IMG/VR virus record: IMGVR_UViG_2850773344_000009
Direction: 5' to 3' (one strand)
Source of the DNA: a virus
Lineage: Duplodnaviria; Heunggongvirae; Uroviricota; Caudoviricetes
Length of the DNA: 64,000 bases
Shown in pieces: positions 61,101 to 64,000 of this stretch; position 1 is the first letter of the stretch, and each line of letters begins with the position of its first letter. The position numbers are program-made.

Positions 61101-64000
61101 AAATGGTTAGCGGCTGATTATCTTCGATACCTCGATTCCCGCTGCCCGCTCCAGTTAGAGTCTTTCAGTCTGCGATGATGGGAAATCCCGGAGTGACTGA
61201 AAGACGTTTAAGTTATGAATGATCGCTTTTTTTGCAAAATTGCTGTGCAGAAATACTAACCTTCGGGCAGGCGATCATTCATAAGCACTCTGCTTTTATT
61301 CCGATTAACTGTGGGTGGTTTGTTGGATAGAGTGCTTCCCTTACTGTATATATCGTTTCGCCCGCTTTTGCGGGTTTTTCTTTTCAAATCCCTTTCATTT
61401 CTCAGTGTAAAACTACGCCATCCGTTATTTGCGGAGGTGAGGCTATGAAATCCATGGACAAAATTTCAACGGGCATTGCCTACGGCACCTCCTCAGGCAG
61501 TGCTGGCTACTGGTTTTTACAGTGGCTTGATCAGGTCAGTCCGTCACAGTGGGCTGCGATTGGTGTACTGGGGAGTCTGGTTCTGGGCTTCCTGACTTAT
61601 CTGACAAATCTGTACTTCAAAATCAGAGAAGACAAGCGTAAGGCTGCACGGGGAGAGTAATTCAATGACACAAAAATATGAACTGATTGTGAAAGGGATC
61701 CGCAATTTTGAGAATAAAGTTACGGTAACTTTAGCGTTACGGGACAAAAAACGCTTTGACGGTGAAATTTTTGACCTGGACATCTCGCTGGACCGTGTTG
61801 AAGGTGCCGCGCTGGAGTTTTATGAGGCAGCAGCCAGAAGGAGCATCAGACAGGTCTTCCTGGATGTTGCTGCCGGGTTATGTGAAGGGGACGAGCTGTT
61901 GCCAGAAACGCGCCCCTGTTCAGAGGCGCGGTATACCATAAAAATTAACAGTTCTGATAACTCGATTACGGGTTGTTAGCTTTTTGCAGTTGGCTTTCCA
62001 GTATCTTTCATTGGTAGCATCCTGATAAATATCCATGAGCGCAAAAATCAAATACGGCCTGTCAGCTGCTGTTCTGGCGCTGATTGCTGCAGGCGCGTCT
62101 GCTCCTCAAATACTTGACCAGTTTCTGGATGAAAAAGAGGGTAACCACACTACGGCATACCGCGATGGTTCCGGTATATGGACCATCTGTCGTGGTGCCA
62201 CAATGGTGGATGGTAAGCCCGTCATACCGGGAATGAAGCTGTCGAAGGAAAAATGCGACCAGGTTAACGCTATTGAACGTGATAAGGCGCTGGCATGGGT
62301 GGAGCGCAATATTAAAGTACCACTGACCGAACCACAGAAAGCGGGTATAGCGTCATTTTGTCCCTATAACATTGGCCCAGGTAAGTGTTTCCCGTCGACG
62401 TTTTATAAGCGGCTGAATGCCGGTGATCGTAAGGGCGCATGCGAGGCGATTCGCTGGTGGATAAAAGATGGTGGGCGCGATTGCCGCATACGTTCAAATA
62501 ACTGCTATGGACAGGTTATTCGTCGTGACCAGGAAAGCGCATTAGCCTGTTGGGGGATAGATCAGTGAGCTGAGTCGCCGCGATTATTTATGCTCTGGTT
62601 ATCTGCATCATCGTCTGCCTGTCGTGGGCGGTCAATCATTACCGTGATAACGCCATCGCCTACAAAGAACAGCGTGATAAAAAAGTCAGTGAGCTGAAGC
62701 TGGCGACCGCCACCATTACTGACATGCAGCAACGCCAGCGTGCTGCTGATGTACTCGATGCTAAATACACGAAGGAGTTGGCTGATGCGAAAGCTGAAAA
62801 TGATGCTCTTCGGCGCAAGCTTGATAATGGTGGCCGGGTGCTCGTCAAAGGAAAATGCTCTGTGCCATCCTCAGCCGAAACCTCCAGCGCCTCCGGCATG
62901 GGCAATGATGCCACCGTCGAACTCTCTCCAGTTGCTGGACGAAACGTTCTCGGTATCCGGGACGGAATCATCAGAGACCAGACAGCACTGAGAACGCTTC
63001 AGGAATATATCAGGACGCAATGCCTTCGATGATAGAGATAATTTTACTCATCATCCTTCACATCTGGCTCTGTAGACAGGGTGGTGATCACTTCTGGAGT
63101 GAATCCAGATTAAACATCTCATTGCTGATGCTTAAAGTTGAGCATTTGGCGCGCGGTAAGGGGCTGCGTTTAGATAAGAGCCAGTCATCACAAACACCAG
63201 GATTTAGCCTCGCATTCGCGGGGCTTTTTATTGCAACAAAGGTAAAGACGATGGATGAAGAATATCGTAAAGACCTGCAACTGTGGTTTGGTCTTACGCA
63301 TGCGTCGTTCTGCGTGATGCCGCGAGTATTCATGGAGGCTATGCCTCCAGAATGGCAAGAGAAGATGGCTCAGTTGCTTTTTGAGTATAGCGACACGATC
63401 AAAACGGATGTCTGCGGAGTTCACAGCTGTTTTGTTACTGCCAAAGACGGCAACAACCGCTTTATGAGGATGCCAGAAGATATTCTGAACTATCGTCATC
63501 CTCGACGTGAATTCATCGAATCATTTCTGAAGAAGTAGCCATTACAAAGCCTATCTACGGGTGGGTTTGATAATGGCTTATACTGGATTTGCCCCTATAT
63601 TTCCAGACATCTGTTATCACTTAACCCATTACAAGCCCGCTGCCGCAGATATTCCCGTGGCGAGCGATAACCCAGCGCACTATGCGGATGCCATTCGTTA
63701 TAATGCTCGAACGCCTCTGCAAGGTTCTTTGCTGCCGTTAACCCGTCTGGTTTGGGCATGATACTGATGTAGTCACGCTTTATCGTTTTCACGAAGCTCT
63801 CTGCTATTCCGTTACTCTCCGGACTCCGCACCGCCGTGTTCTTCGGTTCAAGTCCCAACATCCGGGCGAACTGGCGTGTTTCATTAGCCCGGTAGCATGA
63901 ACCATTAGCCGTCAGCCACTCCACTGGAGACGACGGAAGATCGTTGCCGAAGCGGCGTTCCACCGCTCCCAGCATGACATCCTGTACTGTTTCACTGTTG

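What the first reader, a model, noticed from the sequence alone, without database searches (positions are those of the whole stretch)
61445..63032. Second lysis cassette (phage-21-type) carries an extra gene between holin and endolysin, and its Rz lacks a normal start
Holin and endolysin genes are normally adjacent or overlapping. Here a 104-aa ORF with no membrane or secretion signal is inserted between the S21-like pinholin and the SAR endolysin. It would be expressed with the lysis genes at the very end of infection, so it could be a lysis regulator, an anti-defence or abortive-infection factor, or a late-expressed moron. Separately, the Rz reading frame has an in-frame TGA three codons into the expected start region, while the embedded Rz1 looks intact, so spanin function may be compromised.
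Basis: partly seen in the sequence, partly recalled or inferred. Interest (0 to 1): 0.6.

Follow-up and report, generated by a model that had tools for sequence, protein, structure and literature searches.

The report
Known ydfR lysis cassette, dead Rz
The "extra" gene between the holin and the endolysin is ydfR, a common but still uncharacterised gene of E. coli-type prophages, and the broken Rz gene is a real nonsense mutation in a decaying prophage fragment of Shigella flexneri, so the finding is real but ordinary.

Summary
Both observations are correct. Window 61445-63032 holds a phage-21-type pinholin, a 104-aa ORF, a SAR-type lysozyme and embedded Rz/Rz1.

The 104-aa ORF is ydfR (Pfam DUF1327, E 2.6e-39). 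The same holin-ydfR-endolysin order occurs in the E. coli K-12 Qin prophage and in the phage records of mEp460, H-19B and many Stx phages. ydfR-like DNA is in 4348 of 5426 complete E. coli genomes. It is a soluble beta-beta-beta-helix domain under purifying selection. Its function is unknown. The only experimental lead is a 2026 report that K-12 YdfR binds the N-terminal half of RNase E and co-purifies with RNA.

One new detail: ydfR normally travels with a small convergent partner gene. Here a ~315-nt deletion removed that gene, as in most E. coli copies.

Rz has AGA->TGA at codon 3. The allele is absent from 5426 E. coli genomes. It is identical in three further assemblies, and NCBI annotates the resulting 149-aa product as Shigella flexneri. 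So it is a fixed pseudogene, not a sequencing error. The cassette is IS-flanked and has no Q antiterminator upstream: it is a decaying remnant. Novelty: already known. Interest: low.

The parts
61132..61154 (+). 3' end fragment of a tRNA-Gly gene. It marks the left breakpoint of homology with intact lambdoid prophages; the Q antiterminator, late promoter and tRNA cluster found upstream in relatives are missing.
   Evidence: Homology to E. coli HS13-1 (L001) starts at 61132. In L001 that point lies inside the annotated tRNA-Gly 3780-3854. Sequences are compared. ARAGORN finds no tRNA in the window. The only Q-like gene in the window is at 4689-5309 on the minus strand.
61357..61385 (+). Terminator-like GC hairpin plus T run about 60 nt upstream of the holin. 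It is in the position of the late-operon terminator that Q reads through in lambdoid phages (inference).
   Evidence: Consensus scan, (GCCCGC TTTT GCGGGT TTTTCTTTTC). Its function was not tested.
61445..61660 (+). Phage-21-type class II holin (pinholin), 71 aa, with the dual-start motif M1-K-S-M4.
   Evidence: PF04971 E 4.8e-35. PGAP names it 'class II holin family protein' in relatives. One strongly hydrophobic segment at residues 36-56. The weaker first segment and the dual start are read from the sequence.
61665..61979 (+). ydfR (DUF1327 family), 104 aa, soluble. Core domain is residues 1-73 (three beta strands and a long helix); the tail (74-104) is variable. GGAG at 61652-61655 lies 9 nt before the ATG, and the ATG lies 4 nt after the holin stop.
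   Evidence: PF07041 E 2.6e-39. phrog_2735 E 3.6e-55. The exact protein is on 360 contigs, named 'YdfR family protein [Enterobacteriaceae]'. AlphaFold model pLDDT is 80-96 over residues 1-70. dN/dS 0.23-0.24. The same 4-nt holin junction is seen in 78 of 79 IMG/VR loci.
61980..62034 (.). 55-nt ydfR-endolysin spacer. It is a deletion scar: the two ends of a ~370-nt spacer that in some E. coli and Salmonella relatives carries a convergent 79-aa gene (phrog_21218). Only about the last 10 codons of that gene remain (62020-61991, minus strand).
   Evidence: Alignment A5. tblastn remnant match. ORF in L036 3312-3551 on the minus strand. phrog_21218 E 2.9e-45. The full spacer is present in 102 of 5426 E. 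coli genomes.
62035..62568 (+). RrrQ-type lysozyme, 177 aa, with an N-terminal signal-anchor-release-like segment (YGLSAAVLALIAAGASAP) and an E35-x8-D44-x5-T50 catalytic motif.
   Evidence: PF00959 E 1.1e-24. PGAP names it 'rrrQ: lysozyme' in relatives. Hydropathy and motif.
62565..63032 (+). Rz (i-spanin) pseudogene. It starts at a GTG that overlaps the endolysin stop; codon 3 is TGA (62571-62573) where relatives have AGA. The rest of the frame is intact, including the transmembrane segment that immediately follows the stop.
   Evidence: PF03245 E 1.3e-28 for the frame after the stop. The next canonical in-frame start is ATG 62724, which gives a 102-aa product without the membrane anchor. Before that there are only ATT/CTG/ATC codons.
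62785..62991 (+). Rz1 (o-spanin lipoprotein), 68 aa, embedded in the +1 frame of Rz. It is intact.
   Evidence: PF06085 E 4.5e-21. Lipobox VAGC at residues 16-19. AAGGAG lies 8 nt upstream of the ATG.
57130..58378 (-). IS3-family insertion sequence that cuts the terminase gene of a P22-like prophage. It forms the left IS flank of the region that holds the cassette.
   Evidence: Integrase-core (rve) domains in 57138-57977 and a truncated Terminase_6N in 56080-57144. The 1249-bp repeat is found in two copies around the cassette in L007 and L011.
63595..64000 (-). Another IS3-family transposase gene (partial; it runs off the window) about 560 nt downstream of Rz. No packaging or structural genes follow the cassette.
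   Evidence: rve_3 E 3.5e-19. L012 gene call 4931-6159 on the minus strand with HTH_Tnp_1/rve domains.

Best explanation
The region is an orphaned Qin/mEp460-type lambdoid lysis cassette in a Shigella flexneri chromosome. It consists of an S21-type pinholin, ydfR, an RrrQ-type SAR endolysin and embedded Rz/Rz1.

(1) The 'extra' gene is ydfR. It is the usual occupant of a variable cargo slot that exists between S21-type holins and RrrQ-type endolysins. It is a real, selected, soluble protein, positioned for translation from the late lysis transcript through its own ribosome-binding site inside the holin 3' end.

My committed reading, at about 35% likelihood, is this. YdfR is not part of the lysis machinery. 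It is an accessory (moron-type) late protein whose conserved N-terminal domain binds the catalytic half of host RNase E, and possibly RNA, and so modulates RNA decay late in infection. Ancestrally ydfR travels with a small convergent partner gene. Here that partner was removed by a ~315-nt deletion, as in most E. coli copies.

(2) Rz carries a lineage-fixed nonsense mutation at codon 3. No usable start precedes the membrane anchor, so the i-spanin is almost certainly not made. Rz1 alone cannot disrupt the outer membrane, so the cassette could at best give spanin-defective lysis.

(3) The cassette has no Q antiterminator or late promoter upstream. It is bracketed by IS elements, and one sister genome has also lost the endolysin frame. 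The Rz lesion is therefore ordinary prophage decay, not a regulatory design.

Shown: identity, distribution, synteny, the deletion, and the nonsense allele with its fixation. Inferred: expression, RNase E targeting by this copy, and loss of spanin function.

The confidence value of 0.8 covers identity, ordinariness and decay. The RNase E sub-claim alone is about 0.35.
For: Identity:
- Pfam and PHROG matches.
- PGAP names in near-identical E. coli loci.
- K-12 Qin essD-ydfR-rrrQ-rzpQ, mEp460, and H-19B with an unannotated ORF in the S-R gap.

Frequency:
- ydfR-like DNA occurs in 4348 of 5426 E. coli genomes at 8603 places. S21-holin-like DNA occurs at 16875 places.
- 101 phage records carry it.
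- 78 of 79 IMG/VR loci share the same 4-nt holin-ydfR junction.

Cargo slot:
- No RrrQ-type endolysin abuts its holin directly. The occupants are DUF1327 proteins of 103-287 aa, or the C-terminal extension alone.

Real gene:
- dN/dS 0.23-0.24.
- Confident beta-beta-beta-helix model over residues 1-73.

RNase E lead (PMC13232886):
- K-12 YdfR residues 1-72 interact with Rne 1-597 in bacterial two-hybrid assays.
- Rne 1-598 co-purifies with Strep-YdfR, and DNase-resistant nucleic acid co-elutes.
- The window protein is 59/72 identical to K-12 YdfR over that region.

Not lysis-specific:
- Distant DUF1327 genes lie between tail genes or upstream of holins.
- DLP12-type cassettes have the holin abutting the endolysin.

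Partner gene and deletion.

Rz:
- AGA->TGA.
- The TGA 45-mer is in 0 of 5426 E. coli genomes; the AGA form is in 1252 genomes.
- 0 hits versus at least 120 hits in IMG/VR.
- TGA is present in L007, L011 and L012.
- The 149-aa product is annotated 'lysis protein [Shigella flexneri]' on 56 contigs.
- The only canonical downstream start gives an anchorless product.

Remnant status:
- No Q upstream, and the homology breakpoint lies inside a tRNA-Gly gene.
- IS flanks.
- The endolysin call is shortened to 89 aa in L011.

Host:
- gtrA-gtrB-gtrV is 98.6% identical to Shigella phage SfV.
- Window 58665-64000 is 100% identical to an NCBI assembly contig.
Against: - The RNase E link rests on over-expressed, tagged K-12 YdfR in one study. 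The full-length short-linker fusion scored with only one Rne construct. Over-expression changed few transcripts. The authors could not exclude a contaminant as the source of the RNA.
- In E. coli, ydfR is tightly linked to S21-type holins. A lysis-related role would also predict this.
- Expression of this particular copy is unknown because no late promoter is present in cis.
- Low-level UGA read-through, or initiation at ATT 62583 (the start NCBI uses for the 149-aa call), cannot be excluded by sequence alone.
Confidence: 0.8

Rival explanations
1. YdfR is a dedicated lysis regulator. As a cytoplasmic factor co-translated with the pinholin, it tunes holin triggering or SAR-endolysin release.
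For: The 4-nt junction with S21-type holins is invariant in 78 of 79 loci. In K-12, the ydfR stop overlaps the rrrQ start. It co-occurs with RrrQ-type rather than R21-type endolysins. A Keio-collection screen listed ydfR among envelope-integrity mutants, as cited in PMC13232886.
Against: It has no membrane segment. Distant family members are outside lysis cassettes, between tail genes M/L, before J, or upstream of unrelated holins. In Salmonella it follows a different holin family, PF16080, with a 120-nt gap. DLP12/phage-21-type cassettes work without it (phage 21 lysis biology is from my own knowledge). S21 already encodes its own antiholin through the dual start. The envelope phenotype of a ydfR deletion could be a polar effect on rrrQ.
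Confidence: 0.15
2. ydfR and its convergent partner form a two-gene conflict module: toxin-antitoxin-like, defence, or anti-defence. The partner would be expressed from the prophage, and YdfR from the late transcript. In the window only the YdfR half survives.
For: Every independent DUF1327 context examined has a small convergent ORF immediately downstream. This is unusual in co-directional phage operons. The module sits in moron-like positions. The slot is modular and variable. Two of the partner proteins both hit phrog_6806 weakly.
Against: Neither YdfR nor the longer variants match PADLOC defence models, apart from one E 0.007 HamA hit. The partner proteins are not detectably homologous by BLASTP across contexts. 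The partner is missing from about 98% of E. coli genomes that have ydfR, so YdfR is kept without it. Over-expressed K-12 YdfR was not toxic. No promoter was found for the partner by a simple scan.
Confidence: 0.2
3. The Rz stop is an assembly or sequencing error, or is functionally bypassed by read-through or by the ATT start, so the spanin is intact.
For: NCBI annotates a 149-aa 'lysis protein' from ATT 62583 that keeps most of the membrane segment. The rest of the Rz frame has no further lesions.
Against: The identical TGA is present in three further assemblies, and the annotated product is on 56 Shigella contigs. No Shine-Dalgarno sequence precedes the ATT. ATT and UGA read-through are both very inefficient in E. 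coli (own knowledge). The allele is absent from all E. coli genomes and IMG/VR viral contigs that carry this Rz, as expected if viable phages do not tolerate it.
Confidence: 0.04

Closest known systems
E. coli K-12 Qin prophage lysis cassette essQ(essD)-ydfR-rrrQ-rzpQ
   Same: The gene order is the same: S21-type holin, ydfR 4 nt after the holin stop, then a 177-aa RrrQ-type lysozyme. The YdfR core is 59/72 identical. Qin is also a defective prophage.
   Different: K-12 YdfR has a different C-terminal tail (103 aa), and its stop overlaps rrrQ instead of leaving a 55-nt spacer. Its spanin gene is the DUF2514-type rzpQ, not the PF03245 Rz with embedded Rz1 seen here.
Lysis cassettes of phages mEp460 (gp54-gp57) and PhiR47_1, and of H-19B and Stx1a/Stx2c phages
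   Same: mEp460 and PhiR47_1 are 96-99% identical in DNA across holin-ydfR-R-Rz. They have the same 104-aa YdfR, the same 55-nt spacer and the same Rz type, with an intact GTG-AGC-AGA start where it could be read. H-19B carries a 58%-identical ydfR as an unannotated ORF in its S-R gap.
   Different: Those cassettes sit in deposited phage genome records, downstream of late-region genes and with an intact Rz. The window copy has the Rz nonsense codon, no Q or late promoter, and IS flanks.
Phage 21 / DLP12 S21-R21-Rz/Rz1 cassette (pinholin plus SAR endolysin paradigm)
   Same: The holin family and dual start are the same. The logic is the same: pinholin, SAR endolysin, two-component embedded spanin.
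   Different: In the DLP12 type the holin and the 165-aa RrrD endolysin overlap by 1 nt, with no intervening gene. The endolysin here is the RrrQ type.
Lambda Rz/Rz1 spanin and Rz nonsense mutants
   Same: Rz1 is embedded in the +1 frame of Rz, Rz has an N-terminal membrane anchor, and Rz1 has a lipobox. From established lambda genetics (own knowledge: Berry, Young and colleagues), loss of either subunit blocks the last lysis step, which is visible in Mg2+-supplemented or unshaken cultures.
   Different: Here the nonsense codon is natural, fixed in a Shigella lineage, and lies in a prophage remnant. No phenotype was tested.
Phage-encoded RNase E/degradosome modulators (T7 gp0.7, phiKZ Dip, T4 Srd)
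   Same: This is only a possible functional analogy: a small phage protein reported to bind RNase E (PMC13232886).
Lambda bor-type morons (opposite-strand genes inside the late operon)
   Same: The 79-aa partner gene, present in relatives and deleted here, is a small gene on the opposite strand inside the late lysis region. Lambda bor, next to Rz, is arranged the same way (own knowledge).
   Different: There is no homology to Bor. The partner has no signal peptide or lipobox, and its expression is untested.

Membership tests
YdfR / DUF1327 (PF07041) | Match to the Pfam model above its gathering score | tested here: met
   133.7 bits against a cut-off of 25, E 2.6e-39, residues 1-96. phrog_2735 E 3.6e-55 over the full length.
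YdfR / DUF1327 (PF07041) | Family-invariant residues of the core domain (Y5, G47, Y53-E54, A57) | tested here: met
   Alignment A3 of 22 members down to 24% identity: Y53 and E54 are invariant, and Y5, L7, G47 and A57 are at least 90% conserved. All are present in the window protein.
YdfR / DUF1327 (PF07041) | Binding to the RNase E N-terminal half (reported for K-12 YdfR only; not a curated family property) | not testable with these tools
   PMC13232886. The window protein is 59/72 identical over the interacting region.
Phage-21-type pinholin (class II holin, PF04971) | Pfam match, about 70 aa, dual-start Met1/Met4, two hydrophobic segments, charged C-terminus | tested here: met
   E 4.8e-35. 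The MKSM start and the [13 protein letters not shown] tail are read. The second segment scores 1.72. The weakly hydrophobic first segment ([19 protein letters not shown]) is read from the sequence only.
SAR endolysin (T4-lysozyme-fold, PF00959) | Lysozyme domain with the E-x8-D-x5-T catalytic triad and an N-terminal Gly/Ala-rich signal-anchor-release segment | tested here: met
   PF00959 E 1.1e-24. Motif at residue 35 and a hydrophobic window at residues 9-27 scoring 1.78. Actual membrane release is not testable here.
Two-component embedded spanin (Rz PF03245 / Rz1 PF06085) | Rz1 lipoprotein gene wholly embedded in the +1 frame of Rz, with a lipobox Cys | tested here: met
   PF06085 E 4.5e-21. 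Rz1 at 62785-62991 lies inside 62565-63032. VAGC lipobox.
Two-component embedded spanin (Rz PF03245 / Rz1 PF06085) | Complete Rz reading frame: a start codon followed by the N-terminal transmembrane anchor and the periplasmic coiled-coil domain | tested here: not met
   Codon 3 is TGA. The first canonical start after it, ATG 62724, lacks the anchor. It is therefore an Rz pseudogene by descent, not a functional member.
Functional lambdoid late operon | Q antiterminator and late promoter upstream; packaging and structural genes downstream on the same strand | tested here: not met
   There is no Q-like ORF on the plus strand upstream; the only hit is at 4689-5309 on the minus strand. Upstream lie an IS3-family element and unrelated genes, and an IS lies downstream at 63595.
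Known anti-phage defence systems (PADLOC-DB) | Match to any defence protein model | tested here: not met
   No hit for the window YdfR at E <= 0.01.

The most novel reading that the evidence does not exclude
DUF1327/YdfR plus its small convergent partner gene is a mobile two-gene module of temperate enterobacterial phages. YdfR would be a late-expressed binder of RNase E or RNA. The partner would be a lysogen-expressed counterpart, making an effector/antidote or regulator pair. The holin-endolysin interval of S21/RrrQ cassettes would be a dedicated cargo slot for such modules. In the window only the YdfR half survives.
Probability: 0.15. Interest if true: 0.55.

Novelty: already known. Interest (0 to 1): 0.17.

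Why it matters
As it stands, the value is mainly annotation hygiene. The 'insert' is ydfR. The Rz lesion is a genuine Shigella flexneri pseudogene, which NCBI currently annotates as a 149-aa ATT-start protein.

The wider interest lies in ydfR itself. It is one of the most widespread uncharacterised prophage genes of E. coli, present in 80% of complete genomes, and it sits in the late lysis transcript. Its only functional lead is RNase E binding.

Two side observations give concrete, testable handles on its function:
- It normally travels with a convergent partner gene.
- The holin-endolysin interval behaves as a variable cargo slot.

Tried and rejected
(1) Sequencing error for the Rz stop: rejected. 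The identical allele is in three other assemblies, and its product is on 56 Shigella contigs.

(2) A polymorphism common in E. coli: rejected. It is in 0 of 5426 genomes, against 1252 genomes with the AGA form. It has 0 hits against at least 120 in IMG/VR.

(3) Finding the source in species-representative genomes by exact pattern: no hit. The source was identified instead through exact-protein contig look-up.

(4) Single-sequence AlphaFold model: too poor to use, pLDDT 49. It was replaced by an alignment-based model with pLDDT 76.

(6) Sequence search of solved structures: nothing.

(7) NCBIfam: no model for YdfR, the holin or Rz. PADLOC: no defence match.

(8) Rfam at permissive E over 60500-64000: no RNA family.

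(9) Extending the partner-gene family: only 5 clusters were found, too few for a profile. BLASTP between partners from different contexts was not significant.

(10) Promoter scan for the partner gene and for the cassette: nothing above the shuffled expectation.

(11) The search for related loci with the divergent alignment A3 failed for lack of a conserved stretch.
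Full report
**What is there**

Window 61445-63032 encodes, on the plus strand, the following:
- A 71-aa phage-21-type class II holin (PF04971, E 4.8e-35) with the MKSM dual start.
- A 104-aa ORF whose ATG lies 4 nt after the holin stop.
- A 177-aa lysozyme (PF00959), after a 55-nt spacer. It has a Gly/Ala-rich hydrophobic N-terminus and an E35-x8-D44-x5-T50 motif.
- An Rz frame (PF03245) whose GTG start overlaps the lysozyme stop.
- An intact Rz1 (PF06085, lipobox VAGC, AAGGAG ribosome-binding site) embedded in the +1 frame of Rz.

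**The extra gene is ydfR**

The 104-aa ORF matches Pfam DUF1327 at 133.7 bits against a cut-off of 25, and phrog_2735 over its full length. In near-identical E. coli loci, NCBI's pipeline calls it 'YdfR family protein', between 'class II holin family protein' and 'lysozyme'.

The same order is present in several well-known places:
- The E. coli K-12 Qin prophage, as essD-ydfR-rrrQ-rzpQ, with the ydfR stop overlapping rrrQ.
- The phage record of mEp460, gp54-57.
- H-19B, as an unannotated ORF in the S-R gap.
- 101 phage records in all, mostly Stx1a/Stx2c phages and ECOR-derived lambdoids.

ydfR-like DNA is in 4348 of 5426 complete E. coli genomes at 8603 places. S21-holin-like DNA is at 16875 places. 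So roughly half of such holins are followed by ydfR. The other half, the DLP12/phage-21 type, have the holin overlapping the 165-aa RrrD endolysin.

The exact window protein is on 360 contigs, named 'MULTISPECIES: YdfR family protein [Enterobacteriaceae]'. The arrangement is therefore common and already annotated.

**What kind of protein it is**

It has no membrane segment: its highest 19-residue hydropathy score is 0.75. The family is very narrow. There are 260 clusters at 90% identity among 5.8 billion proteins, and 75 representatives at 50% identity among 1.84 billion. The named members are E. coli, Shigella, E. albertii and Salmonella.

Alignment down to 24% identity defines a core of about 73 residues. 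Y53-E54 is invariant, and Y5, L7, G47 and A57 are nearly so. C-terminal tails are variable, with family members of 72-76, 103-116, 174-183 and 268-287 aa.

An alignment-based AlphaFold model is confident over residues 1-73: three antiparallel strands and a 24-residue helix, with pLDDT 80-96. The tail is disordered.

Between diverged copies the core has dN/dS 0.23-0.24, so it is a selected coding gene.

Fold searches gave no significant neighbour:
- Foldseek: E values are 0.01 or higher.
- No solved relative was found by sequence.

**Function**

The library holds one experimental study, PMC13232886 (2026). Its findings for K-12 YdfR are:
- The first 72 residues were recovered three times in a bacterial two-hybrid screen.
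- YdfR interacts with RNase E 1-597.
- RNase E 1-598 co-purifies with Strep-YdfR.
- DNase-resistant nucleic acid co-elutes.
- Over-expression is not toxic and changes few transcripts.

The authors call the function unknown. The window protein is 59/72 identical over that interacting region.

On this basis I commit, at about 35%, to the following reading. YdfR is a late-expressed accessory protein that targets host RNase E or RNA, and is not a component of the lysis machinery.

**Context evidence against a dedicated lysis role**

Distant DUF1327 genes are found in several other positions:
- Between tail genes M and L (L100).
- Before the tail-tip gene J (L101).
- Upstream of unrelated holins (L098, L103).
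- In Salmonella, after a PF16080 holin with a 120-nt gap.

These are moron-like positions.

In E. coli-type phages the holin-endolysin interval behaves as a cargo slot. I examined 98 IMG/VR loci with an RrrQ-type endolysin and enough upstream sequence. In none of them does the holin abut the endolysin. The occupants are DUF1327 proteins with short or long tails or, in two loci (L137, L190), the long C-terminal extension alone without the DUF1327 domain. No Pfam or PADLOC family matches these extensions.

**A partner gene that has been deleted here**

In every independent distant context, the DUF1327 gene is followed immediately by a small convergent ORF of 58-100 aa. In Salmonella and in 7 of 79 close E. 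coli IMG/VR loci, a convergent 79-aa gene (phrog_21218) lies in a ~370-nt ydfR-endolysin spacer.

Alignment shows that the window's 55-nt spacer is the two ends of that spacer, joined by a clean ~315-nt deletion. Only about the last 10 codons of the partner remain (remnant match).

The full spacer is in only 102 of 5426 E. coli genomes, so the partner-less form seen here is the usual one.

Two partner proteins from different contexts both hit phrog_6806 weakly. Homology across all partners is otherwise not demonstrable. What the pair does is unexplained. This is the only part of the locus with some novelty.

**The Rz lesion**

Rz reads GTG AGC TGA. HS13-1, PEC41 and CUPF09 read GTG AGC AGA, with no other difference in the surrounding 100 nt.

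I searched with a 45-mer centred on the change, which can only match if the central base agrees. The results were:

| Allele | Complete E. coli genomes | IMG/VR hits |
|---|---|---|
| TGA | 0 of 5426 | 0 |
| AGA | 1252 | at least 120 |

The TGA allele is nevertheless not an error. It is present in three other public assemblies: L007 (CP026788.1), L011 (AE014073.1) and L012. NCBI annotates the resulting 149-aa ATT-start product as 'lysis protein [Shigella flexneri]' on 56 contigs.

After the stop, only ATT, CTG and ATC codons precede the transmembrane segment, and none has a Shine-Dalgarno sequence. The first ATG (62724) gives an anchorless 102-aa product.

By the established lambda model, which is my own knowledge and was not tested here, an o-spanin without its i-spanin cannot disrupt the outer membrane.

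**Why the lesion is unremarkable**

The window is a Shigella flexneri chromosome:
- Window 58665-64000 is 100% identical to an NCBI assembly contig.
- The window carries gtrA-gtrB-gtrV 98.6% identical to phage SfV.

The cassette is an orphan:
- Homology with intact prophages begins at 61132, inside the 3' end of a tRNA-Gly gene.
- The Q antiterminator, late promoter and tRNA cluster found upstream in HS13-1 are missing.
- The only Q-like gene in the window is at 4689-5309 on the minus strand and belongs to another cassette.
- Upstream lie unrelated genes and an IS3-family element that also truncates the terminase gene of a P22-like prophage on the opposite strand.
- Downstream, about 560 nt after Rz, lies another IS.
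- In L007 and L011 the cassette is bracketed by two copies of the same IS. In L011 the endolysin call is also shortened to 89 aa.

Compared with its closest E. coli relative, the 1.8-kb cassette differs at 11 positions, one of which is the nonsense codon. This is ordinary prophage decay in an IS-rich genome.

**Verdict**

- Observation: confirmed.
- Interpretation: partly supported. The extra gene is real and late-operon-embedded. It is the well-known, very common, still uncharacterised ydfR, and I found no evidence for a lysis-regulator role. The Rz defect is real and lineage-fixed, and sits in a dead cassette.
- Novelty: already known.
- Interest: low (0.17). The residual interest lies in the ydfR-partner module and the cargo-slot behaviour of the holin-endolysin interval. 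Both are hypotheses for experiment rather than findings.

Noticed in passing
L229 3309-3548 (-), L036 3312-3551 (-), L016 693-992 (-), L017 335-616 (-), L098 768-1070 (-), L100 754-966 (-), L101 4269-4445 (-), L103 4560-4811 (-); remnant in window 61991-62020 (-): Every DUF1327/ydfR gene examined outside the common E. coli form is followed at once by a small convergent ORF of 58-100 aa (phrog_21218, 25324, 10490, weak 6806, or none). The pair appears to move as a unit between different positions in phage genomes. In the window the partner was removed by a ~315-nt deletion.
   Followed up: partly
IMG/VR loci L117, L129, L137, L170, L190 (holin-endolysin interval): The interval between S21-type holins and RrrQ-type endolysins is a variable slot. 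It holds DUF1327 proteins of 104-268 aa with different C-terminal extensions or, in L137 and L190, a 209-213-aa protein that consists of the extension alone. None of the extensions has a Pfam or PADLOC match.
   Followed up: partly
window 63020-63538 (+): This 172-aa ORF looks like an in-frame fusion. Residues 1-50 match the 50-aa phrog_11822 gene that follows Rz in relatives. Residues 33-172 match the C-terminal part (positions 99-230 of 233) of phrog_3527. Other annotations call only a 95-aa ORF at 63251-63538. In L007 and L011 an IS is inserted at window 63245-63248.
   Followed up: partly
window 61132-61154 (+): About 23 nt identical to the 3' end of a phage-borne tRNA-Gly gene mark the exact point where similarity to intact prophages begins. 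This may be a recombination or deletion junction. No complete tRNA is found anywhere in the window.
   Followed up: partly
window 44458-57144 (-) and 57130-58378: P22-like structural genes (coat, scaffold, portal, large terminase) lie on the minus strand. The terminase N-terminus is cut off by a 1249-bp IS3-family element. The same IS brackets the lysis cassette in two related Shigella assemblies.
   Followed up: partly
window 22053-26007 (+) and about 26129-41624 (-): An integrase gene followed by gtrA-gtrB-gtrV (O-antigen glucosylation, 98.6% identical to Shigella phage SfV), next to myovirus-type tail and head genes. This is an SfV-like serotype-converting prophage and identifies the host as Shigella flexneri.
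   Followed up: partly
window 2802-3236 (-) and 4689-5309 (-): This is the 'first' lysis region of the window. It has an Rz/Rz1 pair 52% / 35% identical to the second one, and a Q-like antiterminator about 1.5 kb upstream on the same strand. No ydfR homologue accompanies it.
   Followed up: no
L011 (AE014073.1) 3636-3905: In this sister genome the endolysin of the same cassette is called as only 89 aa. The cassette alignment shows 5 gap openings relative to the window. So a second lysis gene has decayed independently there.
   Followed up: no
window 62583 (ATT): Public Shigella annotations start the truncated Rz at a non-canonical ATT codon, giving a 149-aa 'lysis protein' on 56 contigs. This hides the fact that the gene is a nonsense pseudogene of a 155-aa protein.
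   Followed up: yes
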